A stretch of 64,000 nucleotides of DNA from the NCBI GenBank assembly GCA_964436955.1, contig CAYTFC010000004.1, positions 5,872-69,871 of the forward strand, given 5' to 3'. The notes under the pieces were generated by a model. That model worked only from the letters and a program-made list of their open reading frames with translations. It ran no database searches and was not told the origin of the DNA. Below are positions 1 through 20,154 of the stretch, one piece after another. Both the position numbers and the translations under genes were made by a program. This stretch comes from an uncultured bacterium. GTDB lineage: Bacteria > Chlamydiota > Chlamydiia > Chlamydiales > JAJFMA01. Position 1 is the first letter of the stretch. The number at the start of each line of letters is the position of its first letter.

Positions 1-244
1 CCATTTCGGATGGCACAATATCCATGATTCGTCGGGTGATCCCGTCAGATCTATACAATTGATCCAGTTCCGCTTGTTCGAATATTTTCTCCAGGCGAAA
101 GTGAGCATTGACGTTTTTATCGCGTCCTCGCATGCCTAGCCCAGTCAGGACATTGATCCATCCATCGGCCTTGACAAATCCATCATTATGAGGAACGCGA
201 CTCTGTTCTTCAGCGGATTTTTTCTCAAAATTATACGTAGCCAT
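1..244 (-). CDS. phage portal protein, N-terminal part (gene runs off the left edge)
   Basis: Hand translation of the minus strand from ATG at 244-242 (SD gggag just upstream) is open to position 1: MATYNFEKKSAEEQSRVPHNDGFVKADGWINVLTGLGMRGRDKNVNAHFRLEKIFEQAELDQLYRSDGITRRIMDIVPSEM. The W-x-N-x-x-TGLG...DK...eL..LYr...i.rrIvD pattern matches my recollection of DUF1073/HI1409-type portal N-termini. It is absent from the ORF track because it is truncated. Confidence 0.55.
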   Translation of the reverse strand, partial: MATYNFEKKSAEEQSRVPHNDGFVKADGWINVLTGLGMRGRDKNVNAHFRLEKIFEQAELDQLYRSDGITRRIMDIVPSEM

Positions 245-506
245 ATACTCCCAAGAGTTAGAGATCAAAATGATACTTGGGGAAGATGGGTACTTGGTGG
301 CAACGGCGAGAAAATCGTCGTCTTTGTGTCGATGAGTGTTTGATTTCAGCGTCCCTCCTGAAAAAGAGGGGAGCTTTTCTAAAAATCACCTTATCATAGT
401 TTTACAAAAAAATAATAGTGAAGAGTTTGTGAAACAGCTGTTTCGTAATTCAAAAAGGGTAATTGGTCAAACAAAACTTTGCGTGTTCCGTCATGTTTAC
501 ATCTCT

Positions 507-552
507 AAAACCGGCGGAAAAAACATTGTTTTGTGTTTCATCCGCCGGTTTT
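507..552. terminator. strong stem-loop, bidirectional terminator-like
   Basis: aaaaccggcgga (507-518) pairs perfectly with tccgccggtttt (541-552). The loop is 22 nt, with an A-run on one side and a T-run on the other. Confidence 0.5.
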
Positions 553-592
553 ACTGTTTACTGATACTTTTTTTATACTCTAGAAGGCATCT

Positions 593-670
593 ACAAATCG
601 ACAAATGTCATTTTGCGGATCAATTTCATTATCATAACAATTATCTACAAAATAACATTTGTCGATTTGT
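593..670. repeat. perfect 16-bp inverted repeat (acaaatcgacaaatgt / acatttgtcgatttgt) with a 46-bp spacer
   Basis: Read directly at 593-608 and 655-670. The core CAAATCGACA recurs at 10769-10906. Confidence 0.8.
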
Positions 671-863
671 GGATTGATTTTTTCCGAGATCAAGGTTTTG
701 CTGCATCCATAAATTCTCTAAAACCTACCCATCTAAATTTAGTGGGTTGATTTTGGAGAATTCATTACCATGCCTACATACATGTTTATATGGTTGTATA
801 TAAACATTATTTCAAATATGTATAGGATAACCAAAGAATTCCAAGCCGAGGAGGTGGTTGCCT

Positions 864-1094
864 ATGAGAGAACAAGTGGTAAGACTAAGTTTTGACATAT
901 CTGTACATGAACATGCGTTGCTAAAGTCTGCTTGTGCTGAGGCTATGATACCCATGAAAGATTTTTTGCATGATTTGGTATTGAGAGGAATACAGGAACT
1001 TAAGGAAAAGAAATCGCGCGAAAAATCAAAAGAGTCAAAAGCGGGCAAGCTCGAAACGAAGACACTTGTTGAATGTGTAAAAGATGACGCTTGA
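864..1094 (+). CDS. small ribbon-helix-helix (CopG/ParG-like) DNA-binding protein
   Basis: ATG at 864 is preceded by SD gaggaggtgg. The N-terminal strand-helix-helix pattern VRLSFDISVHEHALLKSACAEAMIPMKDFLHDLVLRGI parallels the 56-aa ORF at 45390-45560 (RITLECSPETRKAIRIMAAQNDKSMNDFILSIVLEKM). Confidence 0.55.
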   Translation: MREQVVRLSFDISVHEHALLKSACAEAMIPMKDFLHDLVLRGIQELKEKKSREKSKESKAGKLETKTLVECVKDDA

Positions 1095-1140
1095 AGTCGA
1101 TAAATTTTACACAAAGCATAGCTATAGAGGATTTTCATTC

Positions 1141-2397
1141 ATGGGTGTAAAAAATTGGAAAAGATTATGTTATTTCGTTTGTGTTTCCTTCTTCCTATAT
1201 TTTCCTTGTGAGATTTTTTGCGAAACAACTCTTTCTTTTGACGAAGCAGTATCCAAAACTTTATCCCTTTCTCCCAAGCTTCGCATCGCCAATAGTGAAA
1301 TAAATGGAAAGGCTGGGGCTCAAACTCAAAGTCGACTCTATCCAAATCCAGTAGCGGGTTACAGTGTTGAAAATGTCTTTGGGAATAAGAATTGGCAAGG
1401 TTGGGAGGCTGCAGAATCGCGATATGAAATTGCTCAACTAGTAGAATTGGGTGGGAAAAGGGGATTCCGATATCAAACAGCAAGATTTCAATTCTATGCC
1501 GCACAGGCGGGATTTGAAGCCAAGCAACTTTTCCTTCTCAATAGACTTTTAAAATTATTCACTTTAGTTGTTGCCTCCCAAGAGAATCTCGCGCTAGCTG
1601 TAGACCAAACGAAAGTTGCGGAAGAAGTCTATAAGACAGTAACCGCAAAAGTCGAGGCGGGTAAAGTTTCTCTAATCCAACAAAATAAAGCAGAAATTGC
1701 TCTTTCAACAGCTCAGATCAACTTAGAGAAAGCTAAAGCGGACTTTTCTAAAAATAAAGAAAGGCTTTCGATTTTATGGGGATATTCCTGTCCTGATTTT
1801 GATAGAGTCAGTTTTCCTTTTTATGAAATTAATTTACCAATTCCTTTCGAAGAATGTCTATCTGATTTAAGAGGAAATCCTGAACTTTTGCGATCTCAAA
1901 TGGAGCACCTTGCAGCTCATCAAAATTTAAATTTAGAAAAATCTTTAGCTATTCCAGATGTGACAGTAATACTTGGATACAAAACACTTCAAGATACAGG
2001 AAATAAAGGGCTAATCCTTGGAGCTTCTATTCCTATCCCACTTTTTAATCAGAATCAAGGAAATGTACAGAGAGCAAGGGCTCAAACGCTTAAAGCTCAT
2101 GATCAGTATATTGAACTTGAGCTTGCTTTAGAAAATAAACTCTCTATCGCGCATAAAGAGTTAGTGAGAGCCTACAATGAAGCAGAGCGGATAAGATCTA
2201 CAGTGCTTAAAGCGGCTTTCCAATCTTTTGAACTAGCTCAAGAAGGTTATAAGGAAGGAAAATTTGAATACTTAGACATGCTCGATTCTCAAAAAACCCT
2301 TTTTGAAGTTAGAGAAAGATACATTCAAGCCGTGCTAAATTATCATAAAAGCATAGCAGATATAGAATATTTAAATACACAGGAAGATGGGCTATGA
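1141..2397 (+). CDS. czcC: outer-membrane factor of a heavy-metal RND efflux system (CzcC-like)
   Basis: I place the start at ATG 1141 (SD agagga at 1125-1130), which gives a signal-like N-terminus MGVKNWKRLCYFVCVSFFLYFPCEIFC. The protein has a TolC-family two-repeat coiled architecture. It is the first gene of a C-B-A order, and ATGA overlaps the next gene. Confidence 0.8.
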   Translation: MGVKNWKRLCYFVCVSFFLYFPCEIFCETTLSFDEAVSKTLSLSPKLRIANSEINGKAGAQTQSRLYPNPVAGYSVENVFGNKNWQGWEAAESRYEIAQLVELGGKRGFRYQTARFQFYAAQAGFEAKQLFLLNRLLKLFTLVVASQENLALAVDQTKVAEEVYKTVTAKVEAGKVSLIQQNKAEIALSTAQINLEKAKADFSKNKERLSILWGYSCPDFDRVSFPFYEINLPIPFEECLSDLRGNPELLRSQMEHLAAHQNLNLEKSLAIPDVTVILGYKTLQDTGNKGLILGASIPIPLFNQNQGNVQRARAQTLKAHDQYIELELALENKLSIAHKELVRAYNEAERIRSTVLKAAFQSFELAQEGYKEGKFEYLDMLDSQKTLFEVRERYIQAVLNYHKSIADIEYLNTQEDGL

Positions 2398-3614
2398 AAA
2401 TGAAAATATTTTATTCGATTACAGGGATAGCTCTTTTAATGAGTAGTATAGTGGCTTGGCAGTTTTGGTCATCATCTCCACTAAAAAAAGAGACTGCTTC
2501 TTTAGAAATAGCCGAAGCAAACCCTCATGGTCATATTGACGAGCATGGCCATAGCGAAGAAAATATTATTCCACTTTCATCGGATCAAATCAAAGATTTG
2601 GGAATTCAAACAAAAATAGCAGGTCCTGGAGAATTATCTGTGACCATTTCCACTAGAGGAAAAATTATTTTGCATCCAGATAAGCTAGCTCACATTTTGC
2701 CTAAAATCTCTGGGGTTGCTAAAGAAGCTCGAAAAAACATTGGAGATCGAGTTAAAGAAGGTGAAGTCTTAGCTATTTTGGAAAGTCGTGAAATGGCTGA
2801 TATCAAAGCGAATTATTTAGCAGCTAAAGAGAAAGAGAGCCTTGCCCTTTCTCTTTTAGACCGTGAAAAACGTTTACATGAAAAGAAAGTTTCTGCTGAA
2901 CAGGATTATTTAAATGCAAAATCAGCTTATGTAGAAGCTAAAATTAATGTTCAATTATCCGAACAAAAACTCCATGCTTTTGGGATTGAGGATGAAGAAA
3001 TCAAAGAGCTTTCTAATGAACATAACCCTGATTTAAGACTTTACGACATCCGATCTCCTATGGATGGAATTGTGATCGCTCGTCACATTAATAAGGGGGA
3101 ATTTATTGAAAATACGACGACGATTTACGAGATTGCTGATCTTAGCATCATCTGGATAGAGATCGGGATATATCCAAAGGATCTTGTGAGGGTAAAAGAG
3201 GGACAAATGGTGGATATTTCTCTTCCTGTAGATGGAAAGATCGCACAGGCAAAAATAATCTATCTTAGTCCGATCATTCAAGATGAAACTATAACGGCTA
3301 AAGCTGTAGCCGAATTGACAAATCCGAGTGGAAACTGGCGCCCTGGTTCCTTTGTTAAGGTAAATATTGCAACTGAAAATGTTTTTGTTCCCCTTGTCAT
3401 ATCTAAAGAGGCGATTCAAGAGATCGAAGGCAAAGATTTTGTTTTTGTAAAAGTACCTGAAGGTTTTGAAAAAAGACAAACCCAAGTAGGTGTTAGCGAC
3501 GATAAAAACGTTGAAATTCTTTCAGGCTTAAGTGCAGGAGAAGAATACGCCTCTTCAAAAACATTTTTATTGAAAGCTGATTTAAGCAAAAAAGAAGCGG
3601 AGCATGAACACTGA
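2394..3614 (+). CDS. czcB: membrane-fusion (HlyD-family) subunit of heavy-metal RND pump (CzcB-like)
   Basis: N-terminal TM segment, His-rich HGHIDEHGHSEE, a coiled-coil hairpin and a beta-barrel C-terminus. TGATG overlaps czcA. Confidence 0.8.
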   Translation: MKMKIFYSITGIALLMSSIVAWQFWSSSPLKKETASLEIAEANPHGHIDEHGHSEENIIPLSSDQIKDLGIQTKIAGPGELSVTISTRGKIILHPDKLAHILPKISGVAKEARKNIGDRVKEGEVLAILESREMADIKANYLAAKEKESLALSLLDREKRLHEKKVSAEQDYLNAKSAYVEAKINVQLSEQKLHAFGIEDEEIKELSNEHNPDLRLYDIRSPMDGIVIARHINKGEFIENTTTIYEIADLSIIWIEIGIYPKDLVRVKEGQMVDISLPVDGKIAQAKIIYLSPIIQDETITAKAVAELTNPSGNWRPGSFVKVNIATENVFVPLVISKEAIQEIEGKDFVFVKVPEGFEKRQTQVGVSDDKNVEILSGLSAGEEYASSKTFLLKADLSKKEAEHEH

Positions 3615-6600
3615 TGATTGAAAAAATTCTAAGATTTTCTATCCACTATCCTCTGGCTATCATTCTATTCACCTTAGTCGTGACTGGATTTGGTATCTAT
3701 TCATTTATTCGTCTTCCGATAGATGCTGTTCCAGATATCACTAACAATCAAGTCCAGATCAATACAACGTTACCAGGATTTTCTCCCATCCAAATAGAAA
3801 AACAGGTGACTTATGTCATTGAAACCGCATTAGCAGGCATCCCTGGCCTACAGATGACGCGATCTATTTCTAGAAATGCTTTTTCTCAAGTCACCGCTAT
3901 TTTTGATGATGATGTGAATATCTATTTTGCTCGGCAACAAATTAATGAACGCCTAAGTGAAATCAAAGAAAACCTTCCACAAGGTGCAGATCCAAGAATG
4001 GGACCTGTATCTACAGGACTGGGTGAAGTTTATATGTGGACTGTAGATTTTAAGCATCCTAATGGAAAAGGAGCAGAGATTAAAGAAGGTTCACCTGGCT
4101 GGCAAAAAGATGGGAGGTATCTAACTCCAGAAGGTCAATTCTTAAGCACAGATATTGAGAAAGCTTCTTATTTAAGGACAGTTCAAGACTGGATTGTCAA
4201 GCCACAGTTAAAGGGAGTTAAAGGATTAGCTGGTGTCGATTCTATTGGAGGATACGTCAGACAGTATCACGTAGAACCAAACCTTGAGCGTATGATTGCT
4301 CTTGGTTTAAGCTTTGATGACATTATTTCTAGCTTAAAAAAAAACAATGCCAGTGTTGGACCTGGATATATTGAAAAGAAGGGAGAAAGCTTACTTATCA
4401 AATCGGATGAGCGTTTAGATGCTCCTATCCAAATCGAAACCATTGTTTTAGCGACAATAGAAGGTATTCCCATTCGAGTCAGGGATATTGCGGAAGTGAT
4501 CATCGGAAAAGAGATGCGGACAGGTAGTGCTAGCAAGGACGGTCATGAAGCTGTAGTTGGGACAGCTTTGATGTTGATTGGAGCAAATAGCAGAACTGTA
4601 TCTCAAGCCGTAGATGAAAAGCTCAAAGAAATCAATAAAACGCTTCCTCCAGATATCGAAGCCAAATCTGTTTTAAATCGTACCAAACTTGTAAATGCAA
4701 CCATTAAAACGGTGGTAAGCAATCTAGGCGAAGGAGCCATTCTAGTCATTGCCGTTTTATTTTTATTTCTAGGTCAATTTAGAGCAGCATTGATTACTGC
4801 TATGGTAATTCCTCTCTCCATGCTTATGACCGCCACAGGTATGGTTCAGTCCAAGATTAGCGGGAACTTAATGAGTCTTGGCGCTATTGACTTCGGTTTA
4901 ATCGTTGATGGTGCTGTGATTATTACCGAAAACTGTTTAAGGAGATTGACGCAGAAGCAACATGAGCTTGGAAGAACTTTAGAGCTTAGTGAGCGTCTGC
5001 AAGAGGTTTTAACAGCAAGCAAAGAGATGATTCAGCCAACTGTATTTGGACAAGCCATCATTATCACCGTTTATATTCCTATTTTAACTCTTACAGGAGT
5101 TGAAGGAAAAATGTTTCACCCTATGGCCATGACAGTCATTTTCGCTCTGGTATCAGCATTTGTGCTTTCCCTTACCTTTGTACCCGCCATGATCGCTGTT
5201 TTTGTTAAAGGTCATTTAAAAGAGAAAGAAAATAAAATAGTTGAGTACTCAAAAAGGATTTATAGCCCGATTTTAGATAAATCCTTGAAATTCCCTTGGT
5301 GGACTATATCTTCCGGCGTTGTCATTTTTGCCCTGTCTCTTATCTTATTTTATCAACTAGGGCAAGAATTTGTTCCAACTCTTGATGAAAGAGACATTGC
5401 AATGCATGCAGTGCGAATCCCAAGCACTTCCCTCACTCAATCAACTGAAATGCAAACCATGGTTGAGAAAACGATCAAGAAATTTCCTCAAGTTGCTTAT
5501 GTATATTCTAAAACAGGAACTGCAGAAATGGCTTCAGATCCGATGCCACCTAATGTTTCTGATACATTCATCATTCTTAAACCAAGAGAGGAGTGGCCAG
5601 AGCCTAATTTAGACAAAACAAACTTGATCGAACTGATCCAAACTGAAGTAAATAAAATACCAGGAAATAACTATGAATTTACTCAACCTATTGAAATGCG
5701 ATTTAATGAATTGATTTCTGGAGTAAGAAGCGATTTAGCTGTGAAGATTTATGGAGATGATTTTGACGTTATGCAGAGAGCAGCAGATCATATTGCTAAT
5801 ATTCTTAGAAAAATTCCTGGATCAGCTGATGTTAAAATAGCTCAAACAAAAGGATTACCTGTTTTAGACGTGAAGATCGACAGAGAAGCAGCCAGTCGCC
5901 TAGGTATTAATGTTTCTGAAGGATTAGATGTTTTAGCTATAGCAGCGGGAGGGGGAAAAGCAGGACAAATTTTTGAAGGTGACCGTCGCTTTGATATATT
6001 GGTTAGACTTCCAGAAACACAGCGGGAAGATATTAAGGCATTAGGAAACCTACCAATTCCACTCCCTGTAAAGGAAAATTCTGGAAATAAGACCAAGGCG
6101 CATTTTCCTTATGTCCCTCTAAGTGAAATAGCTGTTCTCAAAGTTTCTGATGGGCTGAATGAAATTCGTCGAGAAGATGGAAAGCGTTTTATTGCAGTTC
6201 AAGCCAATGTACGTGGCAGGGATTTAGGCTCTTATGTCGAAGATGCTAAGAAAAAAATTCAAGATGAAGTCAAGATACCTGATGGATATTGGCTCAATTG
6301 GGGTGGACAGTTTGAAAATTTGATTTCAGCTAGACAACGTTTGTTTATTGTTGTTCCAATTTGTCTAGGATTAATTTTTCTTCTACTATATACCGCCTTT
6401 AACTCGGTACGCTATGCACTATTAGTTTTTAGTGGGGTTCCTCTTGCTTTAACAGGCGGAATCGTTGCTCTCTGGATAAGAGATATGCCTTTTTCAATTT
6501 CTGCAGCCGTTGGATTTATTGCTTTATCTGGAATAGCTGTTCTCAATGGACTTGTTCTCATCACATATATTAATCAGCTTCTAGCCGAAAAAGATGACCT

Positions 6601-6865: not shown

Positions 6866-6867
6866 TC

Positions 6868-8745: not shown

Positions 8746-8759
8746 AAAAATGTCACCCC

Positions 8760-9271: not shown

Positions 9272-9320
9272 TTCTTTCTATCCTAAGTATGCTCGTGCCA
9301 TAAGGAATGTAGGAGTTAAA

Positions 9321-11335: not shown

Positions 11336-11373
11336 ACATATCTCCTTTTAAATTTTCTAAGAACTTCAGTGCA

Positions 11374-12702
11374 TCACAAAATAAATCCATCCGGTAGATG
11401 AGTCCCACGAGGGACAACGATAATCCCATCTCGAATACAAATTTTATCGTTACTATAATTCATCAATTTATCTTTGTTTATCAGCCGGACGTTATTTCCT
11501 ATACACACATTTTTATCGATGATAGCGTGATCAATGATGCAGTTTTCTCCGATCATGGGATTGCTTGGAATGCCTTCATAACGTATTGGAGAAGAATAAA
11601 AATCATTACCAATGATGTAGCTATTCTTAATGATTGAACCTTGCTTAACAATCGACCGCAATCCAATAATGCTATTGCTAACCTCTGCGGCTTGAACCAA
11701 AGATCCATCACAGATAATAGCATTCGTGATCGCTGAGTTAATGATCTTGGGAGCTGATAAATAATGTTGTCTGAAAAAAATATGTTTTTTTTCTTCGCAA
11801 CAATTGAATTCAGGATTAGACGACGTCAGTGCAATATTGGCTTTGAAAAATGATTCAATAGTGCCGATGTCTTCCCAATAACCGTTATGAGGATAAGCAA
11901 AAACATTTCCTTGGCCGACTTTAGTTGGAATCAGATGTTTACCAAAATCTTCTCGAGGATCGCATTGGAGCAAATCTAATAATGCTTGTCGCTTGAATAC
12001 ATAAATCCCCATCGAACCAAGAAATTGTCGTTTGCCAATCTCTCCTCCAGCCATCTTCTCCAGAGTATTTGACGGGAGGCGCAATTGATTTAAAAGTTCT
12101 TGTTCTTGAGGTTTTTCATAAAATTCAGTAACCGAGTAATCTTCGTTTAATTTCATGATCCCCATGCGCTTTGCATCTTCCTCATTTACAGGTAGTGCTG
12201 CAATTACCAGGTCAGCAGAGGTCTCTTTAGCAAAATCAATGATGTGTTGGAAATTCATGTTATAAATTTGATCGCCCGACAAAATAAGAAAATACTCTGC
12301 AGGAGTTTCAGTAAAGTAATGCAGATTTTGTCGAATAGCGCATGCTGTTCCCTGAAACCATAATTTATGCGTGTGTTTTTGTTCTGCTGATATTAGCTCA
12401 ATAGCAGAAGAAAAAAATGCACCTGGATGGTAAGTGTTAAAGATGTGCTGGTTGAGTGAGGATGAAAGATATTGAGAAATAACGAAAATTTTAGGGCAAC
12501 CCGAGTGAATGGCATTAGAAATAGGAATATCAATCAACCGATATTTACCACCAAAACACACAGCTGGTTTACATCGGGTATTTGTAAGTGGGTCAAGCCG
12601 TGTACCGTTTCCACCTGCAAGAATAATTGTGGTGACACAATTCATGGCCACTGATATCTTGGTTTTTCTCGGTGAAAGGCAACATTCGGCCATTTGTGTC
12701 AT
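11374..12702 (-). CDS. glgC: glucose-1-phosphate adenylyltransferase (ADP-glucose pyrophosphorylase)
   Basis: ILAGGNGTRLDPLT nucleotide-binding loop, the FGGKYRLIDIPISN and WFQGTA.AI motifs, and a C-terminal left-handed beta-helix region. The true start may be M20 (12645). Confidence 0.85.
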   Translation of the reverse strand: MTQMAECCLSPRKTKISVAMNCVTTIILAGGNGTRLDPLTNTRCKPAVCFGGKYRLIDIPISNAIHSGCPKIFVISQYLSSSLNQHIFNTYHPGAFFSSAIELISAEQKHTHKLWFQGTACAIRQNLHYFTETPAEYFLILSGDQIYNMNFQHIIDFAKETSADLVIAALPVNEEDAKRMGIMKLNEDYSVTEFYEKPQEQELLNQLRLPSNTLEKMAGGEIGKRQFLGSMGIYVFKRQALLDLLQCDPREDFGKHLIPTKVGQGNVFAYPHNGYWEDIGTIESFFKANIALTSSNPEFNCCEEKKHIFFRQHYLSAPKIINSAITNAIICDGSLVQAAEVSNSIIGLRSIVKQGSIIKNSYIIGNDFYSSPIRYEGIPSNPMIGENCIIDHAIIDKNVCIGNNVRLINKDKLMNYSNDKICIRDGIIVVPRGTHLPDGFIL

Positions 12703-12872: not shown

Positions 12873-13856
12873 CTAAGATATTAAATTTACTTTTTTACTC
12901 GCATTATCTGCGCGCGAGGACTTGTCATAAGCATAAACCATTTCTGCGGTGGAATGCCCTGTTACACGCATGATATCGCTGTCTTGGAATCCTTGCTGCT
13001 TAAGGTAGGTGACAGCGGAAGCTCTCAACACGTGTGGAGAAACTTTAAATGGAATTCCAGCAGCCTTCCCAGCTTTTGCAAAAGTTACAGCTACCTGATT
13101 GATCATGACAGAATTTCCCGATCTGGTTACAAATACCTGACCCGTTCTTTCTCCAATGTAGTCTTTAAGGCGCTTCATGATGCTCTCTGAATATGTAATC
13201 ACAGTCTCTTTCTTGAGCCGTCTCATTTTCGACTGAATAAATGTAATCTCACAGCGCTCCCAATCAATTTGGTTGGTTTGCAAGGAGAGCACTTCATTAA
13301 CCCTCTTGCCACCTTGTAAGATCACTTTTCCAATCAAGCAATCGCGAGGATTGATCTTCTCTAGTTCTTTGAAGAATAGAATCCACTGCGCTTGAGTCAT
13401 CGCATGTGTTTTAACCTTCTCATATACGCTAAAGAAGGTCTTTGCGTTTCCTTCTTTATTTGGAATGGCCTTTTTTATCACACCTTCAAGACGACGGCTC
13501 AAAAATCCCGTAAATGAAATATAACAGGCGGCGCGTGCTTGTCTGGTAGATTCTGCCCAATCCTGAAAAAGTTTGATACGGTCAATAATGCCTTCATGAT
13601 TGATCAGCGCAAACTGTTGTAAGCTGATTAGGGGATTAAGCCATCCGAATTCGACCAATTTTTTCATGCCGGATCTATAGCTAAGCTGCGTTTTTGGACT
13701 TAAAGTCGTCAGCCAATAGGAAATGGCTTCTTCGACAGAAATCTCATCCAATTTCTTCCAGACCAAATTAGCTTTGAAAGAGGCGGCTTGCTCATAGGTC
13801 TCCAAATTGGAGGGAATAGGAAGCTCCAAAACTGCTGGCATTAGAGTCATAGCCAT
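12873..13856 (-). CDS. tyrosine recombinase/integrase
   Basis: Catalytic pattern R (GKRVNEVLSL), HxxR (HVLRAS) and H...Y (GHSTAEMVYAYDKS). The N-terminus is a SAM-like core-binding region. Confidence 0.8.
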   Translation of the reverse strand: MAMTLMPAVLELPIPSNLETYEQAASFKANLVWKKLDEISVEEAISYWLTTLSPKTQLSYRSGMKKLVEFGWLNPLISLQQFALINHEGIIDRIKLFQDWAESTRQARAACYISFTGFLSRRLEGVIKKAIPNKEGNAKTFFSVYEKVKTHAMTQAQWILFFKELEKINPRDCLIGKVILQGGKRVNEVLSLQTNQIDWERCEITFIQSKMRRLKKETVITYSESIMKRLKDYIGERTGQVFVTRSGNSVMINQVAVTFAKAGKAAGIPFKVSPHVLRASAVTYLKQQGFQDSDIMRVTGHSTAEMVYAYDKSSRADNASKKVNLIS

Positions 13857-14032
13857 TGCTTCCTTTCACAAAGACCTTCGAATAATTTTTTATACTCTTC
13901 TCTGCACATCACTTCTTGGATGGGGGAACTTGGCTCGGTCTTGATGATGGTAAGATCAATTTTTTTCTGAGATTTTTTCGTTTCAGGAATTTTTTCATGA
14001 GACTTTGAGTCTTTGGGTTCATTTTTTGGCAT
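13847..14032 (-). CDS. small basic hypothetical protein upstream of and overlapping the integrase start
   Basis: Start at ATG 14032 after SD gaggtg (the track's longer 93-aa form has no SD). It overlaps the integrase start by 10 nt. An excisionase-like role is only a positional guess. Confidence 0.3.
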   Translation of the reverse strand: MPKNEPKDSKSHEKIPETKKSQKKIDLTIIKTEPSSPIQEVMCREEYKKLFEGLCERKQWL

Positions 14033-14262
14033 CGACACCTCAACTTGTTTATAAGCGGCTTTATAAACAAGAAAAGATAGCTCAAAAAATCTTTCGTGGC
14101 AACTTGAAGTTTTGATGGTTACAAACATTTTACAGCAAGTCGCTTTAGCTATTCCATATTTAATGCGTTTTTCAATCTTTAATGCTAAATGCCTATTGAC
14201 CTCTAATCGCCTTATCTTTTATACCTCTTATTTCTACCTCGTTAAGGAGGCTAAGTAATGAC

Positions 14263-14520
14263 ATGAGCGAAGAAGTTCAAGAGCTAGTACAGCAAACCAC
14301 TAAAGATATCAGTAGCCAAGATGATCAATTAGTAGTCAGTCGCCGCAACAAGAAAAAAATCAAAGCTACTATTTATCTGACCGAGGAAGCAGAGCAAGCA
14401 TTTACTGAGCTTTATATCCATCGCTTGCGCAAAGATAGAAAGATCGACCGCTCGGTCATTGCTTGCGATGCCATTCAGATGCTTTACGAAAAAGAATGTC
14501 TGGAAGCTGCTTCGAATTAG
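14263..14520 (+). CDS. ribbon-helix-helix DNA-binding protein (paralog of the ParA-partner C-terminus)
   Basis: KATIYLTEEAEQAFTELYIHRLRKDRKIDRSVIACDAIQMLYEK aligns with KMTFNLTEDIYKAFNDLYANRMLQGRKTEKSEMICEAIQWLIKM of ORF 43957-44463. Confidence 0.55.
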   Translation: MSEEVQELVQQTTKDISSQDDQLVVSRRNKKKIKATIYLTEEAEQAFTELYIHRLRKDRKIDRSVIACDAIQMLYEKECLEAASN

Positions 14521-15377
14521 AAGAATGCGTTTTCTTTCAGCCATTGGTTCAGGACTGAAATCACATCCTCTATCGATTCAGGCAGTTTGAGAGCGCCTTT
14601 TTTCGCTTTGATTTTTCTACGGTAGGGAGTCCAGTTTTTCTCAAGCGTTTCTAAAGCATCCATGCCGAATGCAACCGGTAGTTTCTTCAGAAGAGTTTTT
14701 CTGTGGTGGAAAACCAGCTGGACGGCTTTCTTTGCAAGAGAGCTGTCGAGAACATCTAAGCGAACTAGCGAGTACAGGTCATGGAAATCTTTCATCCTGG
14801 TGTTGCCTCCTCCTCTGAAAACAACCGTTTCTAATTTCTCTGCAAAAATGAATTCCTTCGGATAGCAATGCAGAGAAATTCTGCTTTCAAAGAGAGGGCC
14901 TTTCGATGTGGCAGTCAAATCCATGGGATATTCAATTGGCTCCACGCGGTCGCCGAATCCTAAATCCATGCGCATGACCGTCTTGGTGGCGCCGAACAAT
15001 GCCTGCAGCGTAATTTCAGCTCCTGTGTATGCGAGCTGCGAATGATCGAGGATCTTGATTTTAGCCACTTCGAAGGCAAAGCTATCATTAGCATTGATAT
15101 CGCAGATCGCTTGCAACACAGTTCTTAAAGACTCTTCAGTATTCGATAGCTTTTGAATGAAGAAGTCAAGATCCTGCGTCTCCCTTCCAAGATGGATGTA
15201 TTTTGCCAGGAGGGATCCTCCTTTCAGAACAAATTTTTCCCTGTAAATAGAACGCGCTAAACGGGTCAAAAATCTCTCTAAGATCAGATTCCTCCAAAGT
15301 TCTGCAAAGGTTGTTTCCCGCTCCTTGGCCAGTGCTTTGATTTTCTCTTTGATTGATTGTTCGATTGCAGATTTCAT
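14517..15377 (-). CDS. abiEii: AbiEii-type nucleotidyltransferase toxin (type IV TA / abortive infection)
   Basis: FVLKGGSLLAKYIHLGRETQDLDF nucleotidyltransferase motif, size 286 aa, and a 4-nt overlap with the upstream AbiEi-like gene. Confidence 0.75.
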   Translation of the reverse strand: MKSAIEQSIKEKIKALAKERETTFAELWRNLILERFLTRLARSIYREKFVLKGGSLLAKYIHLGRETQDLDFFIQKLSNTEESLRTVLQAICDINANDSFAFEVAKIKILDHSQLAYTGAEITLQALFGATKTVMRMDLGFGDRVEPIEYPMDLTATSKGPLFESRISLHCYPKEFIFAEKLETVVFRGGGNTRMKDFHDLYSLVRLDVLDSSLAKKAVQLVFHHRKTLLKKLPVAFGMDALETLEKNWTPYRRKIKAKKGALKLPESIEDVISVLNQWLKENAFF

Positions 15378-15970
15378 AGTGTAAACGCCGAAATGTAAGG
15401 AGTTAAGTCGACTCTAAGCTTCTTCGCATATCTTAGAAGCTTGTCGATATCCGGTTTTCTATCTTTGCTTGTCTTTAAATAAGCTTGCAAGGCCTTTAAA
15501 GCGGTTTCCTTGTCCAGATAGCGGAAAGAGTCCACGACAGTCCGTTCCCGATCGAAAATTTTGAGCTTCTGGCTGCCGATTTTAATCGTGGTCTGTCCAA
15601 AAGAGATGTTCCGCATCCGGACGATGTGAGCATTTTCCCTGGCAGGGGAGGTGGTGGCATGCGGAATAGCAATCCAAAATTCCCTCATGATTTCATCCGT
15701 TAAACCGTAATAGCATAGAGCAGAAATGAGACAGATGACCCCATTCGGGATGCTCAAAGTAGTAACCGCGAGATCTTCCCATTCGAATTCGGAGTCAAAA
15801 TCAAGGTCGGTGATTTTATACATCCCTTTGCTGACCCGCTCGATCTGCCCCTTCGTGCAAAAATAGGCAAGCATCCGGGGAGGGATTCCTGCTTTCCTTC
15901 CTTCTGCGGAAGAAAAAACTGCTTTTTTGGACAGCGCTTTGAGCGCGGCTGAGTACTTGGATCTTATCAT
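15374..15970 (-). CDS. abiEi: AbiEi-type antitoxin/transcriptional regulator
   Basis: N-terminal winged-HTH (FSSAEGRKAGIPPRMLAYFCTKGQIERVSKGMYK) and a C-terminal AbiEi domain. It is translationally coupled to abiEii. Confidence 0.7.
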   Translation of the reverse strand: MIRSKYSAALKALSKKAVFSSAEGRKAGIPPRMLAYFCTKGQIERVSKGMYKITDLDFDSEFEWEDLAVTTLSIPNGVICLISALCYYGLTDEIMREFWIAIPHATTSPARENAHIVRMRNISFGQTTIKIGSQKLKIFDRERTVVDSFRYLDKETALKALQAYLKTSKDRKPDIDKLLRYAKKLRVDLTPYISAFTL

Positions 15971-15976
15971 ACCCGT

Positions 15977-16025
15977 AATGTAACAGAAAAACCCATTAAC
16001 GGCAACTGGGTTTTTCTGTTACATT
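15977..16025. promoter_or_regulatory. perfect 18-bp inverted repeat directly upstream of abiEi (candidate AbiEi operator and/or terL terminator)
   Basis: aatgtaacagaaaaaccc (15977-15994) pairs with gggtttttctgttacatt (16008-16025) across a 13-nt spacer. It starts 7 bp from the abiEi start codon. Confidence 0.6.
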
Positions 16026-16074
16026 TTCACTCGTGGAATTCATTAATAAATCTTTTTAAAATAAGGATGTTATA

Positions 16075-17424
16075 TCAAAGAGTTGTCAAAGCGGTCAGGT
16101 CATATGTCGAATCAGTAAGCATCAAAAAAGCACCGCTCAGAGCATCAACAATATCATCATGGCTTCCTTCAGGGAAATTTTCCACCTCTCTTAAAAAATC
16201 TTCGTTCCAGGACGCCTGCAGGATCTTGATATTTCCAGCCTCTGCCTGAGAAGAGACAGGGAGAGCTCTCGTTACTTTGTCCTGGGTAGCTTTGAATGTC
16301 TTCACGTTATACCCTTGAAGCATTCTAACGAGATAATCTGCTTCGCTTATTCCAGCCTGGCCAGGATCCTGCTCGATACCAATCCTTATCGAAACGCCAT
16401 CTTGACTTGCCGTATTTTTGATGGCATTTTGAACCCCTAAAGGACTTTGCTGAATTCTTACCATATCGGTGATGTACAAGATGTTATTTTTATCCTTTTC
16501 AAGACGCAGCCCGACAGTATAATCCGGGTCATTGCTTTCAGTCTTTTTCGTTGCAGCTCGATCCCAATAGCGTACAGCTTTTAAACCTCCTTTTGGAATG
16601 GCTTTGACGACTTCAAAGAAGCTTCTCTGGAAGAACATGCCAGCTGTTGGTCGCACATTCCAATTTCCCATTAGCAGCTGCTCGCGTTCAAATCGAGGTA
16701 ATGCTTTAAGGTTCGCGAGATATCCCGGATCTTTTTCAAGCAGGATTTTATTGTCATGCACAGTTGATGCCACAAAGGAAACACTCTTAGGCAGGCAGCT
16801 CGGATCCTTTTCTATCAATTCTTCGCGGCTAGATCCCCAAATTGTTTGGTCATTCTGAATAAAGAACCAGCGAGTCTTTCCACTACGTGAGGGGATTGGG
16901 TATCCCGATTTTTCATCAATCCACCACGAAATAAATTGCCGGACCCAGGAGTCTGTATCCGGGTTGGTGGTGGCTCTAATATAGGGTTTCACTCCGCAAG
17001 TGGACCGATTCCTTGAGAGCATATAGACAAATTGCTGCCATGAAAAATGAGTTAGCTCATCAAACCCGACAAGGGGAATCTGTGAGCCTTGCCAGTCAAA
17101 GCGTGTTTTATCATGCTCTAGGTGAGCGAATTTGACTTTGCCATTTCCTTGGAAATCCCATTCAAGAGTGGACTCCTTAGGAGTTCCGTTCGCATGAACA
17201 AAAAGTTCGCAGCTTGTATCCCATAAGCCGCCTGGATTGCGGACTTGAGTGCTGTTTCTTCTGAATATTACAGCAGAGAATCCGGGAACATTTCTATGTC
17301 GCAGGCATTCCATTAAAAGAGCCCAAGTTTTGCCGCCTCCAGCAGCTCCACCATAAATGACAATATCCGCCGAAGCATTCAAGAACTGGTATTGAGGACC
17401 TTTCTGAGGTATGATTTTAGGCAT
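16075..17424 (-). CDS. terL: phage terminase large subunit
   Basis: Walker A is IYGGAAGGGKTWALL and Walker B is PLVGFDELTHF. The C-terminus has RNaseH-like nuclease motifs (RYWDRAAT, DPDYTVG, SHDDIVDAL). It overlaps terS by 8 nt. Confidence 0.9.
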   Translation of the reverse strand: MPKIIPQKGPQYQFLNASADIVIYGGAAGGGKTWALLMECLRHRNVPGFSAVIFRRNSTQVRNPGGLWDTSCELFVHANGTPKESTLEWDFQGNGKVKFAHLEHDKTRFDWQGSQIPLVGFDELTHFSWQQFVYMLSRNRSTCGVKPYIRATTNPDTDSWVRQFISWWIDEKSGYPIPSRSGKTRWFFIQNDQTIWGSSREELIEKDPSCLPKSVSFVASTVHDNKILLEKDPGYLANLKALPRFEREQLLMGNWNVRPTAGMFFQRSFFEVVKAIPKGGLKAVRYWDRAATKKTESNDPDYTVGLRLEKDKNNILYITDMVRIQQSPLGVQNAIKNTASQDGVSIRIGIEQDPGQAGISEADYLVRMLQGYNVKTFKATQDKVTRALPVSSQAEAGNIKILQASWNEDFLREVENFPEGSHDDIVDALSGAFLMLTDSTYDLTALTTL

Positions 17425-17905
17425 GGGGGTCCTCCACTTTTTCTTCTATGCAGTCGCCTCTGCCGTTATCGGGAATGTAAATCTGAACAGGATCTTCTCC
17501 TTTGACAATTGTTTCTGTGACAATAGTTTCTCTTTGGCCAAGCCATATTTTTCCAAGCCAGATAGCCATGGTTGCGCTGTGCTCAGCTTGCTGAAATTGA
17601 TAACGGCGAAGGGAGAGTTTATGACGCCCATTGCACCTTTTTCTTAGCTCCGCAAAACCCATACCAAAAGCCTCCCTCAACCTTCGATCCAAGGTATCGA
17701 CGCTGACTCGAAAAGAGCCCGCAATTTCTTCAGCTGTCGCTTGCATTTCAGTCCAATAAAGCACTTGATCAAGATTGATCTCTTTTGCAGGCACGATTCC
17801 TTTCCATTCAGCAGGAGGGGAGTTCGGGTCCACTGGAGGTTTAACCGTTTTCTTAGGCCGGCCGTTTGGCCGGCCTGTAGGCTTTCTAGGCATAATCTTC
17901 ACCAT
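17417..17905 (-). CDS. terS: phage terminase small subunit (HTH)
   Basis: It lies directly upstream of terL. It has a basic N-terminus, an HTH (TAEEIAGSFRVSVDTLDRRL), and the motif SATMAIWLGKIWLGQRE typical of small terminases. Confidence 0.7.
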   Translation of the reverse strand: MVKIMPRKPTGRPNGRPKKTVKPPVDPNSPPAEWKGIVPAKEINLDQVLYWTEMQATAEEIAGSFRVSVDTLDRRLREAFGMGFAELRKRCNGRHKLSLRRYQFQQAEHSATMAIWLGKIWLGQRETIVTETIVKGEDPVQIYIPDNGRGDCIEEKVEDPHA

Positions 17906-20145: not shown

Positions 20146-20154
20146 AAGCAGTCC

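What the first reader, a model, noticed from the sequence alone, without database searches (positions are those of the whole stretch)
1..17905. Packaging module is split: terL and the portal gene are separated by 15.8 kb of cargo
In tailed phages the portal gene almost always follows terL directly. Here terL ends at 16075 and the portal-like ORF starts at 244 on the same strand. Between them lie an AbiE pair, an RHH gene, an integrase, glgC plus a CBM protein, an AAA ATPase, a P1B ATPase and czcCBA, several of them on the opposite strand. Either the late operon has been broken by insertions, making the phage defective or domesticated, or this junction is a tolerated cargo hotspot.
Basis: partly seen in the sequence, partly recalled or inferred. 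Interest (0 to 1): 0.7.

Follow-up and report, generated by a model that had tools for sequence, protein, structure and literature searches.

The report
Chlamydial phage-plasmid with split packaging genes
The window is most of a circular 70-kb plasmid of amoeba-dwelling chlamydiae that carries a complete tailed-phage gene set, in which the DNA-packaging enzyme gene and the portal gene have been held apart, throughout the whole lineage, by a plasmid recombinase gene around which metal-resistance, defence and glycogen genes keep being swapped in and out.

Summary
terL (16075-17424, minus) and the first 81 codons of a 485-aa portal gene (1-244, minus) are separated by 15,830 bp of cargo. The junctions recur in contigs from at least eight independent samples, so this is not a chimera.

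The window is a permuted piece of a circular 70,138-bp element. It is related to the known megaplasmids of Protochlamydia massiliensis (92 kb) and Criblamydia sequanensis (89.5 kb, about 87% nucleotide identity). It combines ParA, a primase-helicase and iterons with a complete myovirus module.

- **The split is clade-wide.** All 19 informative close relatives (TerL at least 87% identical) have a chlamydial plasmid Pgp7/8-type recombinase after terL. Where the portal is visible, it lies 3.5 to 25.7 kb away.
- **Outgroup phages are unsplit.** In 12 of 12 outgroup contigs (TerL 68-77%), portal follows terL within 36-85 bp.
- **Cargo turns over quickly.** It differs even between elements with identical TerL.
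- **The phage genes are not decaying.** dN/dS is 0.00-0.07 for the main virion and packaging genes and at most 0.3 for any gene.

"Tolerated cargo hotspot" is supported and "decaying phage" is not. Virion production is untested, and the element probably exceeds its inferred T=7 head capacity.

The parts
1..244 (-). First 81 codons of the portal gene. The full protein is 485 aa and continues off the left edge of the window.
   Evidence: It matches PHROG 146 (E 7e-6). It is identical to the N-terminus of the 485-aa PF06381/TIGR01555 portal on contig ERZ909576 k127_412385.
245..775 (-). Upstream region of the portal operon. It holds the palindrome at 431-444, a hairpin at 506-553 and an inverted repeat at 589-674.
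   Evidence: Bases 2-683 align to the region upstream of portal in the Criblamydia plasmid at 78% identity. The last ~60 nt before the ATG are conserved across 8 relatives. A -35/-10-like match lies at 422-393 on the minus strand, but promoter-like matches are no more frequent than in shuffled sequence.
431..444 (.). Perfect 14-nt palindrome GAAACAGCTGTTTC, copy 1, 187 nt upstream of the portal ATG.
   Evidence: There are two exact copies in the window, and none of 100 shuffles reached the observed 4 matches at up to 2 mismatches. It is conserved with 1 mismatch at the same place in the Criblamydia plasmid.
776..8755 (+). Cargo module 1: a small RHH-like ORF (858-1094, label unconfirmed), czcC (1084-2397), czcB (2394-3614), czcA (3614-6865) and a P-type ATPase (6868-8745).
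   Evidence: Pfam gives OEP, HlyD_D23, ACR_tran and E1-E2_ATPase plus Hydrolase. The whole block is 85.5% identical to Criblamydia plasmid 27005-34985. There it lies on the other side of the packaging block, next to DUF1064.
9258..10751 (+). AAA ATPase with a C-terminal HTH, a PDC-S27 candidate defence gene. It is part of the conserved wedge.
   Evidence: PADLOC PDC-S27 matches at E 2e-82 over the full length. Pfam gives ATPase_2 and AAA_16. It lies between int and portal in L019, L021, L028 and L048.
10982..12702 (-). Cargo module 2: a 117-aa protein of unknown function (10982-11335) and glgC, ADP-glucose pyrophosphorylase (11374-12702).
   Evidence: Pfam gives NTP_transferase and LbH_GLGC. 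The module is present in L017 and L022, absent from the minimal relatives, and replaced by other genes in L074 and the Criblamydia plasmid.
12873..13856 (-). Tyrosine recombinase of the chlamydial plasmid Pgp7/8 family. It is the anchor of the wedge.
   Evidence: Pfam Phage_integrase matches at E 8e-21. tblastn gives 50% identity over 96% of its length (E 1e-91) to C. psittaci 'virulence plasmid integrase pGP8-D', 59% to the Waddlia plasmid and 57% to the Simkania plasmid. It follows terL in all 19 informative ingroup loci.
13847..14520 (.). Two small conserved wedge ORFs: 93 aa (13847-14128, minus) and 85 aa (14263-14520, plus).
   Evidence: Both are conserved next to int across the ingroup in tblastn. 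Neither has a family match.
14517..15970 (-). Cargo module 3: AbiEii (14517-15377) and AbiEi (15374-15970), an abortive-infection / type IV toxin-antitoxin pair.
   Evidence: Pfam gives AbiEii (E 7e-35) and AbiEi_4. PADLOC gives AbiEii (E 2e-69) and AbiEi (E 1e-79). The pair is present in roughly half of the ingroup loci. It is only 48-50% identical to the second pair at 20155-21617.
16075..17424 (-). Terminase large subunit (TerL).
   Evidence: It matches Terminase_6N and 6C and PHROG 979 (E 4e-164). dN/dS against the Criblamydia plasmid is 0.024.
17417..17905 (-). Putative terminase small subunit (162 aa).
   Evidence: The assignment rests on position. It overlaps the terL start, and homologues of 32-35% identity sit directly upstream of terL in outgroup phages. 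It has no family match.
17886..19723 (-). ParB-N / N6-N4 DNA methyltransferase (17886-19214) and a DUF1064 resolvase-like protein (19382-19723). This is the start of the packaging block.
   Evidence: Pfam gives N6_N4_Mtase and DUF1064. PHROG 498 and PHROG 190 also match.
19887..19914 (.). 28-nt perfect palindrome AAATAGGGAAACAGCTGTTTCCCTATTT, 171 nt upstream of DUF1064. It sits at a synteny breakpoint.
   Evidence: It is the longest perfect palindrome in the element. Homology to the Criblamydia plasmid breaks at window 19847/19941 and plasmid 26937/27005, on the palindrome in both. It is conserved about 170 nt upstream of DUF1064 in 9 or more relatives.
19941..37551 (.). Second cargo region on the other side of the packaging block. 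It holds a second AbiE pair, a second RND metal-efflux system, a P2-type ATPase, a phosphoketolase, an OEP, a multicopper oxidase, DUF2231, DUF326 and a truncated glgP.
   Evidence: Pfam matches. Synteny blocks against the Criblamydia plasmid.
37956..45226 (-). Plasmid maintenance module. It holds an iteron-like array (37956-39931), a 548-aa protein (39923-41569), a primase-DnaB helicase (41566-43911) and ParA (44444-45226).
   Evidence: Repeat families D1, D2 and D4. Pfam gives DnaB_C, Zn_ribbon_DnaG, Toprim, AAA_31 and CbiA. NCBIfam matches to ParA/RepA and dnaG/DnaB are below their cut-offs.
45903..64000 (-). Myovirus tail and neck genes: fibres, baseplate, spike, hub, Dit-like protein, tape measure, chaperone, tube, sheath and terminator. 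The head genes follow in the 6,138 bp missing from the window.
   Evidence: Pfam and PHROG matches, plus the gene tables. The region is 96.3% identical to the Criblamydia plasmid. dN/dS is 0.00-0.07 for most of its genes and at most 0.3 for any.

Best explanation
The window belongs to a circular ~70.1-kb phage-plasmid of environmental chlamydiae (Parachlamydiales). It is a hybrid of two parts. One is a ~40-kb simple myovirus. The other is chlamydial plasmid backbone: the Pgp7/8 recombinase, ParA, a primase-helicase and iterons.

In the common ancestor of this lineage a small wedge came to lie between terL and portal. The wedge consists of two small ORFs, the Pgp7/8-type recombinase and a PDC-S27 ATPase.

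The wedge cut the packaging/structural gene string into two units. One is DUF1064-methylase-terS-terL. The other is portal-head-tail, which must be transcribed on its own. Once that was tolerated, the interval became a permissive landing zone.

In the window three further modules sit at three different points of the wedge:
- an AbiE pair;
- glgC plus a 117-aa gene;
- an 8-kb RHH-czcCBA-P-type ATPase cassette.

Relatives carry other modules, or none, at the same points.

**Shown here:** the anatomy, circularity, clade-wide conservation of the split, rapid cargo turnover, and purifying selection on all phage genes.

**Inferred:**
- the portal operon uses its own promoter;
- cargo exchange is helped by the adjacent recombinase and/or by the repeated palindrome;
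- the element still makes particles.
For: **Circular element.** Locus L007 (contig ERZ909576 k127_412385, 70,265 bp) joins window end to window start through 6,138 bp at 100% identity. That gives a period of 70,138 bp, which is the contig length minus the 127-bp k-mer overlap.

**Known plasmid family.**
- About 87% nucleotide identity to Criblamydia sequanensis plasmid 1.
- 99-100% identity to the two stretches fetched from P. massiliensis contig CCJF01000003.1. The source paper describes that contig as a circular plasmid at about 2 copies per chromosome (PMC5583166).

**Gene sets.** Plasmid functions are.

**The split is a derived, clade-wide trait.**
- 19 of 19 informative ingroup loci have the 85-aa ORF and int after terL.
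- terL-to-portal gaps are 3.5, 3.9, 4.6, 5.2, 6.0, 7.1 and 9.1 kb in relatives, 15.8 kb in the window and 25.7 kb in the Criblamydia plasmid.
- 12 of 12 outgroup loci, and the closest cultured phage (Rhizobium phage RHph_N28_2), have terL and portal adjacent.

**The wedge gene is plasmid backbone.** It is 50-59% identical to the Pgp8-type integrases of Chlamydia, Waddlia and Simkania plasmids. Koestlbacher et al. 2021 place the integrase of these megaplasmids in the pgp7/8 family (PMC7846284).

**Hotspot behaviour.**
- Contigs with identical TerL carry different genes after int, and homology stops 17 nt after the int stop codon.
- Cargo modules are exchanged between the two sides of the packaging block in the window compared with the Criblamydia plasmid.

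**Not decaying.** dN/dS is 0.024 for terL, 0.068 for portal, 0.024 for the capsid protein, 0.000 for the sheath, 0.007 for the tube and 0.031 for the tape measure. ORF lengths are unchanged.

**Read-through is unlikely.** About 9.9 kb of the interval (858-10751) is coded on the opposite strand.
Against: - No virions have been reported for the cultured hosts in the papers read here.
- No lysis genes or clear repressor were recognised.
- The capsid protein's best solved homologues are T=7 heads: T1 (E 5e-40) and Pam3 (E 1e-29; 54.5 kb). Outgroup contigs are 41-44 kb. A 70-kb genome, and the 80-98-kb relatives, may therefore not fit in one head. That argues against a fully autonomous phage life cycle.
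- Promoter-like matches upstream of portal are no more frequent than in shuffled sequence.
- No att-like direct repeats bracket the cargo.
- The role of the recombinase in cargo capture is untested.
Confidence: 0.75

Rival explanations
1. Domesticated or capsid-outgrown element. The phage genes are kept by selection, but the 70-98-kb replicons no longer fit the ancestral T=7 head. Particles, if made, would carry sub-genomic headfuls in a gene-transfer-agent-like way, or serve another host-beneficial role. The element would propagate essentially as a plasmid.
For: - The capsid protein is homologous to T=7 capsids of phages with roughly 49-55-kb genomes.
- Outgroup contigs cluster at 41.1-44.5 kb.
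- The backbone is about 40 kb against about 30 kb of cargo.
- Relatives span 69.5-98 kb although their capsid proteins are 96-99.7% identical to the window's where compared.
- The element is maintained as a plasmid at about 2 copies in culture.
- No lysis genes were recognised.
Against: - The T number was not measured, and the completeness of the outgroup contigs was not verified.
- terS, a methylase and DUF1064 are retained, as in ordinary phages.
- Purifying selection is equally compatible with a normal phage whose head is larger than inferred.
Confidence: 0.3
2. Defective prophage remnant. Insertions broke the late operon and the phage genes are dead passengers on a resistance plasmid.
For: - The interval holds 15.8 kb of unrelated genes, mostly on the opposite strand.
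- Earlier papers treated the phage genes as a minor 'phagic' fraction or a 'putative prophage'.
- A chromosomal copy (L028) does have a truncated portal.
Against: - dN/dS is 0.00-0.07 for the main virion and packaging genes, and at most 0.3 for any gene.
- There are zero amino-acid changes in the 628-aa sheath despite dS of 0.13.
- terL dS of 1.06 shows long co-divergence under constraint.
- All ORFs are full length.
- The same split is kept in all 19 informative relatives.
Confidence: 0.07
3. A single recent insertion of an integrase-borne genomic island, or an assembly chimera, between terL and portal of an otherwise ordinary phage.
For: An integrase lies inside the interval. The GC content of 1-13 kb (0.35-0.41) is lower than that of the packaging block (0.42-0.46).
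Against: - No flanking direct repeats and no tRNA were found.
- The integrase with its small ORFs is present in every ingroup member, including those with a gap of only 3.5 kb.
- The cargo sits at three separate points.
- The junctions are reproduced in dozens of contigs from at least eight samples and in a finished isolate plasmid.
Confidence: 0.03

Closest known systems
Megaplasmids of Criblamydia sequanensis CRIB-18 (LK031773, 89.5 kb) and Protochlamydia massiliensis / 'Diamant' (CCJF01000003, 92 kb); the related R. massiliensis pRm2 (80 kb) is known from the literature only
   Same: - The backbone is the same: ParA, primase-helicase, Pgp7/8 integrase and the whole myovirus module.
- Nucleotide identity is 85-96% to the Criblamydia plasmid. 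It is 99-100% to the two stretches of the P. massiliensis plasmid that were fetched.
- terL and portal are also split there, by 25.7 kb in the Criblamydia plasmid.
- Both carry metal-efflux cargo.
   Different: - The window's element is smaller (70.1 kb). It lacks the ars operon and several metabolic genes.
- The two big efflux cassettes are on opposite sides of the packaging block compared with the Criblamydia plasmid.
- It carries glgC instead of the glucoamylase-to-glgP genes.
- The published descriptions call the phage genes '7% of proteins of phagic origin' or a 'putative prophage / phage group'. They do not call the plasmids phage-plasmids, and they do not mention the split.
Phage-plasmids such as P1 (own knowledge: Lobocka et al. 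2004; Pfeifer et al. 2021)
   Same: - A circular low-copy replicon with ParA-type partition, its own replication genes and a full set of myovirus virion genes.
- A Cre/Xer-like tyrosine recombinase.
- Late genes lie in several separate operons, and in P1 pacAB is not next to the portal gene.
- Accessory cargo is carried.
   Different: - There is no detectable sequence relationship.
- The host is Chlamydiota.
- Cargo makes up about 43% of the replicon and probably exceeds the head capacity.
- The recombinase is the chlamydial plasmid Pgp7/8 type and sits between terL and portal.
Pam3-type 'minimal myophage' and T1-type T=7 heads; E217/Pa193-type tail parts
   Same: - The capsid protein, cement protein, Pam3_gp18, sheath, tube, hub and terminator match these Pfam families and PDB chains.
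- The 12 outgroup relatives keep the ordinary order terS-terL-portal-MuF-scaffold-capsid.
   Different: - Sequence identity is low; the best portal match in cultured phages is 33-35%.
- The genome is 70 kb rather than roughly 41-55 kb.
- terL and portal are split.
Variable defence/moron hotspots of temperate phages (own knowledge: P2/P4 hotspots, Rousset et al. 2022; lambda morons)
   Same: Conserved core genes flank a slot whose content differs between close relatives. The content includes defence systems, here AbiE and PDC-S27.
   Different: - The slot lies inside the packaging module, between terL and portal.
- It holds multi-kb metal-efflux operons and glycogen genes as well as defence genes.
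- It is anchored by a plasmid recombinase.
Pgp7/Pgp8 integrases of the 7.5-kb Chlamydia plasmid
   Same: About 50% amino-acid identity over 96% of the length. Both are plasmid-borne.
   Different: Here there is a single copy, embedded between phage packaging genes. No Chlamydia-type 22-bp tandem origin repeats lie next to it. The iteron-like array is 24 kb away, next to the primase-helicase.

Membership tests
Phage-plasmid | Complete set of virion and packaging genes | tested here: met
   The following were recognised: terS (by position), TerL, portal, MuF, scaffold-like, cement, major capsid, neck proteins, terminator, sheath, tube, chaperone, tape measure, Dit-like, hub, spike, sheath initiator, baseplate and fibres.
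Phage-plasmid | Plasmid replication and partition functions on the same replicon | tested here: met
   ParA (AAA_31 E 3e-53), a primase-DnaB fusion and an iteron-like array of 8-10 copies.
Phage-plasmid | Extrachromosomal circular maintenance | tested here: met
   Circle closure gives a period of 70,138 bp, the contig length minus a 127-bp overlap. Relatives are published as circular plasmids at about 2 copies per chromosome.
Phage-plasmid | Production of infectious virions that carry the replicon | not testable with these tools
   Only indirect evidence is available. Purifying selection speaks for it. The inferred T=7 head capacity below the replicon size speaks against it.
Chlamydial megaplasmid family (C. 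sequanensis / P. massiliensis) | Shared backbone at high nucleotide identity and synteny | tested here: met
   Collinear blocks of 85-96% identity cover most of the element. Identity is 99-100% to the two stretches fetched from CCJF01000003.1.
Variable cargo/defence hotspot between conserved core genes | The same flanking core genes with different content in close relatives, including an empty or minimal state | tested here: met
   The minimal state has a 3.5-kb gap (L019) and other states range up to 25.7 kb. Content differs even with identical TerL.
Variable cargo/defence hotspot between conserved core genes | Content enriched in defence systems | tested here: met
   AbiEi/AbiEii and PDC-S27 by PADLOC. 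Most of the bases, however, are metal efflux and glycogen metabolism genes.
Defective / cryptic prophage | Truncated or frameshifted virion genes and relaxed selection | tested here: not met
   All ORFs are full length and dN/dS is 0.00-0.3. The feature is met only by the chromosomal copy L028, whose portal is cut at residue 336.
Integrase-borne genomic island inserted at an att site | Flanking direct repeats, a tRNA target and an empty site in relatives | tested here: not met
   No bracketing direct repeats and no tRNA. The integrase is present in every relative, including the minimal ones.
Gene transfer agent-like element | Head capacity smaller than the encoding locus; packaging of non-self or partial DNA | not testable with these tools
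   This is suggested only by homology of the capsid protein to T=7 capsids and by the replicon size.

The most novel reading that the evidence does not exclude
These chlamydial megaplasmids may be the first tailed-phage-derived transfer vehicles known for Chlamydiota.

Under this reading the phage-plasmids have outgrown a T=7 head. Their virion genes are kept under strong selection because particles move sub-genomic headfuls between chlamydiae inside amoebae. Those headfuls would include the terL-portal cargo slot with its metal-resistance, defence and glycogen genes.

The Pgp7/8-type recombinase and the repeated GGGAAACAGCTGTTTCCC palindromes would act as a cassette-exchange system built into the packaging module.
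Probability: 0.15. Interest if true: 0.85.

Novelty: new variant of a known kind. Interest (0 to 1): 0.55.

Why it matters
**For chlamydial biology.** In the papers read here, the only phages named for chlamydiae are the small Chlamydiamicrovirus group. To my knowledge no tailed phage has been described for the phylum, and its members are hard to manipulate genetically. This work recognises a widespread family of 70-98-kb chlamydial "resistance megaplasmids" as complete myovirus-plasmid hybrids whose virion genes are under strong purifying selection. It opens a testable route to a transducing vector and to horizontal transfer of metal resistance and defence genes inside amoebae.

**For phage biology.** The lineage shows that the terL-portal junction, usually invariant, can be opened permanently and turned into a cargo slot. 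Within this family the slot holds up to 25.7 kb.

**For annotation.** A split packaging module should not be taken on its own as a sign of a dead prophage.

Tried and rejected
- **att-like repeats.** I looked for direct repeats bracketing the 15.8 kb and found none. The only long pair (15658-15790 and 21305-21437, 71%) is just the two AbiEi paralogues.
- **tRNA target.** None in the window.
- **Origin repeats next to the integrase.** No Chlamydia-type tandem repeats lie there, only weak two-copy hits.
- **Promoter and terminator scans.** Scans of 1-1100 and 12700-20200 gave promoter counts no higher than in shuffles. They are used only as weak hints.
- **'RHH' and 'CBM' labels.** Pfam at E up to 1 found nothing, and terS also has no family hit.
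- **Apparent tandem duplication.** Locus L001 (an 89.6-kb scaffold) first seemed to show the tail genes twice at 93% identity. It proved to be a different variant of the element, not the window's own contig.
- **Simple rearrangement models.** Neither a single inversion nor movement of the packaging block alone explains the window-versus-Criblamydia arrangement. At least two events are needed.
- **Palindrome as a plain terminator.** In the Criblamydia plasmid no same-strand gene lies upstream of it. In L016 and L074, and at the same offset after int in L018 and L029, it lies about 310 nt inside the ORF that follows int, a DUF1016/YhcG-like gene in L074. Its role is unresolved.
- **Replication module of outgroup phages.** A primase-helicase scan of IMG/VR returned only close relatives, so it gave no information.
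- **PDB-code literature searches.** 9KMG gave nothing. 9KZJ identified phage T1.

Full report
**1. What is in the sequence**

The ORF at 16075-17424 (minus strand, 449 aa) is a terminase large subunit.
- It matches Pfam Terminase_6N (E 1e-29) and Terminase_6C (E 7e-17), and PHROG 979 (E 4e-164).
- The Walker A motif (GAAGGGKT) and Walker B motif (LVGFDE) can be read directly in the translation.

A minus-strand ORF starts at 244 and runs off the left edge of the window.
- Its 81 residues match PHROG 146 'portal protein' (E 7e-6).
- They are the exact N-terminus of a 485-aa protein on the source contig.
- That protein hits PF06381 and scores above the curated cut-off of NCBIfam TIGR01555.

The interval between the two genes is 15,830 bp. 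It contains the following genes:

| Coordinates | Strand | Gene |
|---|---|---|
| 15374-15970 / 14517-15377 | minus | AbiEi / AbiEii |
| 14263-14520 | plus | conserved 85-aa ORF |
| 13847-14128 | minus | conserved 93-aa ORF |
| 12873-13856 | minus | tyrosine recombinase |
| 11374-12702 | minus | glgC |
| 10982-11335 | minus | 117-aa ORF, function unknown |
| 9258-10751 | plus | AAA ATPase, PADLOC PDC-S27 (E 2e-82) |
| 6868-8745 | plus | P-type ATPase |
| 1084-6865 | plus | czcC, czcB, czcA |
| 858-1094 | plus | small ORF |

**2. The window is a cut through a circular phage-plasmid**

Looking up window proteins by exact sequence returned a 70,265-bp groundwater-metagenome contig (ERZ909576 k127_412385).
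- On it, window end and window start are joined by only 6,138 bp at 100% identity.
- That stretch holds the rest of portal, a MuF-like protein, a scaffold-like protein, the cement protein, the major capsid protein and neck genes.
- The period is 70,138 bp, which equals the contig length minus a 127-bp terminal overlap. This is the signature of a circular path in a k=127 assembly.

The rest of the window holds:
- a complete simple-myovirus tail and neck module on the minus strand, 45.9-64 kb;
- ParA, a primase-DnaB fusion and an iteron-like array at 37956-39931;
- a second cargo region at 19.9-37.5 kb with a second AbiE pair, a second RND efflux system, a P2-type ATPase, a phosphoketolase, a multicopper oxidase and more.

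The backbone is about 40 kb and the cargo about 30 kb.

**3. It belongs to a known plasmid family whose phage nature was under-described**

- The only PLSDB match is Criblamydia sequanensis CRIB-18 plasmid 1 (89,524 bp, circular), at about 87% identity. Collinear blocks are 85-96% identical.
- Contig CCJF01000003.1 of Protochlamydia massiliensis is 99-100% identical over the two stretches fetched. Its authors describe it as a 92,055-bp circular plasmid at about twice the chromosomal read depth (PMC5583166).
- Bertelli et al. [quoted passage not shown]
- Koestlbacher et al. 2021 identified a 'phage group' of gene families on these two plasmids and called it a putative prophage (PMC7846284).
- A full-text search for 'phage-plasmid' together with 'chlamydiae' found nothing relevant.

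**4. The split is a clade-wide, derived character**

I scanned GTDB genomes and IMG/VR with TerL and annotated the loci with a protein panel.

Ingroup (TerL at least 87% identical; mostly Chlamydiota or Parachlamydiales MAG contigs of 69-98 kb):
- In every one of the 19 loci that extend past terL, terL is followed by the 85-aa ORF and the recombinase, in most loci with the 93-aa ORF between them. The AbiE pair may or may not be present.
- Where both genes are visible, the terL-to-portal gap is:

| Locus | Gap |
|---|---|
| L019 | 3.5 kb |
| L048 | 3.9 kb |
| L028 | 4.6 kb |
| L021 | 5.2 kb |
| L020 | 6.0 kb |
| L027 | 7.1 kb |
| L047 | 9.1 kb |
| window | 15.8 kb |
| Criblamydia plasmid | 25.7 kb |

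- Seven more loci have no portal within 10 kb.
- The minimal state therefore reads: terL, 85-aa ORF, 93-aa ORF, recombinase, PDC-S27 ATPase, portal.

Outgroup (TerL 68-77% identical; IMG/VR contigs, four of them 41.1-44.5 kb):
- Portal follows terL within 36-85 bp in 12 of 12 loci.
- MuF, scaffold and capsid genes then follow in the same order as here.
- None of the wedge genes lies within 10 kb.

The closest cultured-phage TerL (Rhizobium phage RHph_N28_2, 53% identity) is also directly followed by its portal gene.

**5. What the wedge is**

- The recombinase is 50% identical over 96% of its length (E 1e-91) to the C. psittaci 'virulence plasmid integrase pGP8-D'. It is 59% identical to the Waddlia plasmid integrase and 57% to the Simkania one.
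- It belongs to a large family of about 325-aa proteins; those with a source name are nearly all from chlamydial MAGs.
- NCBIfam gives only sub-threshold Xer-type hits.
- The gene that separates terL from portal is therefore the hallmark recombinase of chlamydial plasmids. Its conserved partner is a candidate defence ATPase.

**6. Hotspot behaviour**

Relative to the minimal state, the window carries three separate additions:
- the AbiE pair, between terL and the 85-aa ORF;
- glgC plus the 117-aa ORF, between the recombinase and the ATPase;
- the 8-kb RHH-czcCBA-ATPase cassette (776-8755), between the ATPase and the portal upstream region.

In the Criblamydia plasmid that same cassette lies on the other side of the packaging block, next to DUF1064. 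The AbiE-Cus-ATPase-phosphoketolase module, which is next to DUF1064 in the window, lies on the portal side there.

Among 14 contigs whose TerL is 100% identical to the window's, one differs after the recombinase. L074 has a DUF1016/YhcG nuclease, a beta-elimination lyase, an AlaX-like protein and a LigT-like protein in place of glgC. Homology to the window stops 17 nt after the recombinase stop codon.

No direct repeats bracket the interval and there is no tRNA.

**7. Are the phage genes alive?**

Pairwise Nei-Gojobori estimates against the Criblamydia plasmid:

| Gene | dN/dS | Note |
|---|---|---|
| terL | 0.024 | dS 1.06 |
| portal | 0.068 | |
| major capsid | 0.024 | |
| sheath | 0.000 | no replacement in 628 aa; dS 0.13 |
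| tube | 0.007 | |
| tape measure | 0.031 | |
| recombinase | 0.043 | |
| ParA | 0.022 | |

All ORFs keep their length, and no gene exceeds 0.3. The genes are under strong purifying selection, so the 'broken, decaying phage' reading fails.

About 9.9 kb of the interval (858-10751) is coded on the strand opposite to the phage genes. Read-through from terL to portal is therefore implausible, and the portal operon must have its own promoter. This is an inference. The -35/-10-like match at 422-393 is not statistically meaningful. Only about 60 nt before the portal ATG are well conserved across the clade.

**8. An open problem: size**

- The capsid protein's best solved homologues are T=7 heads: phage T1 (9kzj, E 5e-40; one search identifies the entry) and cyanophage Pam3 (8hdt, E 1e-29).
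- Pam3 has a T=7, 680-angstrom head that holds a 'highly compacted' 54.5-kb genome (PMC9942802).
- Outgroup contigs are 41-44 kb, and the backbone here is about 40 kb.
- If the T number is conserved, a 70-kb replicon (80-98 kb in relatives) cannot be packaged whole. Yet the virion genes are clearly maintained.
- Either the head is larger than inferred, or particles carry partial genomes.

This cannot be settled with sequence alone. It is the basis of the main rival explanation and of the novel case.

**9. A repeated palindrome**

- GAAACAGCTGTTTC occurs exactly twice in the window. One copy is 187 nt upstream of portal. The other is the core of a 28-nt perfect palindrome 171 nt upstream of DUF1064. 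None of 100 shuffles reached the observed count.
- The extended form AAT[A/T]GGGAAACAGCTGTTTCCC[A/T]ATT recurs across the ingroup. It lies upstream of DUF1064, just after the recombinase and upstream of portal. It is absent from the outgroup.
- One synteny breakpoint between the window and the Criblamydia plasmid falls on it.
- The Criblamydia plasmid keeps only a half-site where homology ends after the recombinase.
- Some copies are hybrids of two half-site types.
- This pattern fits a recombination site.
- Against that, in several relatives the palindrome lies about 310 nt inside the ORF that follows the recombinase, a DUF1016-like gene in L074. An operator or hairpin role is not excluded.
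- I leave its function open.

**10. Verdict**

The thing itself is a new variant of a known kind. It is a chlamydial phage-plasmid whose packaging module has been permanently opened by the plasmid's own Pgp7/8-type recombinase and turned into a fast-evolving cargo slot.

Interest is moderate to good. The plasmid family is known. Its recognition as a complete, selected myovirus-plasmid hybrid, the split packaging module and the capsid-size paradox are not, and each is directly testable in cultured hosts.

Noticed in passing
window 37956-39931: An iteron-like array with 8-10 copies of a ~36-45-nt unit (GTGAnnnAGnnGGTCGATTTTGTTTACA). It lies upstream of the 548-aa ORF and the primase-helicase and is probably the plasmid origin. 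A related half-motif (GTCGATTTGT) occurs in the inverted repeat at 589-674, upstream of portal.
   Followed up: partly
window 431-444 and 19887-19914; L014 26939-26964; L016, L017, L018, L029 and others: A palindrome family specific to the ingroup. It brackets the block DUF1064...int in several relatives, coincides with one synteny breakpoint, and shows hybrid half-sites. In L016 and L074 (and at the same offset in L018 and L029) it lies inside the ORF that follows int. Its function is unresolved: recombination site, operator or hairpin.
   Followed up: partly
L001 5863-7701 (also L002, L004, L005): In the 89.6-kb variant the MuF-like minor head protein is 612 aa and carries an intein (PF14890). 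In the window's element and the Criblamydia plasmid it is 283 aa.
   Followed up: no
window 47219-50224: Three tandem glycine-rich (Gly_rich_2) tail-fibre-like paralogues of 300, 291 and 291 aa. GC is 0.46-0.49 and GC skew about -0.3. This is the least conserved part of the virion module against the Criblamydia plasmid (70-88% identity, or no hit), so it is probably the host-range region.
   Followed up: partly
L033 4922-11338 (Chlamydiae MAG JABDDC010000001.1, 143-kb contig): A small chromosomal island: integrase, a 250-aa ORF, an AAA_25 primase-like protein, an HTH terS-like protein and TerL (72% identical). Ordinary host genes follow and there is no portal. It could be a satellite-like element or a remnant. 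A similar 'genomic island with phage terminase' is mentioned for Pr. naegleriophila.
   Followed up: partly
L028 7783-16912 (OY970323.1, 2.07-Mb chromosome): A chromosomal copy of DUF1064...terL-int-ATPase-portal. The portal is cut at residue 336 and no head genes follow. It looks like an integrated, decaying fragment of the plasmid.
   Followed up: partly
L074 4688-8090 (SRR28640813): TerL is identical to the window's, but a different four-gene cargo follows the recombinase: a DUF1016/YhcG nuclease, a beta-elimination lyase, an AlaX-like protein and a LigT-like protein.
   Followed up: partly
window 37006-37551: A truncated glgP remnant. It covers 541 nt and is 92.8% identical to the 5' end of the full glgP of the Criblamydia plasmid. 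Glycogen-metabolism genes (glgC, glgP, glucoamylase) recur as cargo in this family.
   Followed up: partly
whole element against the Criblamydia plasmid: Synonymous divergence is strongly mosaic: terL dS 1.06, portal 0.48, capsid 0.06, baseplate genes 0.01. This indicates recombination between lineages within the virion and packaging genes.
   Followed up: partly
ERZ28594822 scaffold_185 (L040): A 176,291-bp scaffold carries the 89-kb variant and is about twice unit length. It may be a dimer or concatemer, or an assembly artefact.
   Followed up: no
window 14263-14520 (+): The conserved 85-aa ORF has a faint Pfam Phage_integrase similarity (E 0.036). It might be a relic of a second Pgp7/8 paralogue.
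   Followed up: no
L017, L021, L024, L035 record titles: Some family members sit in MAGs labelled Bacteriovoracaceae, Verrucomicrobia or Puia. These are probably plasmid contigs assigned to the wrong bin rather than true hosts.
   Followed up: no
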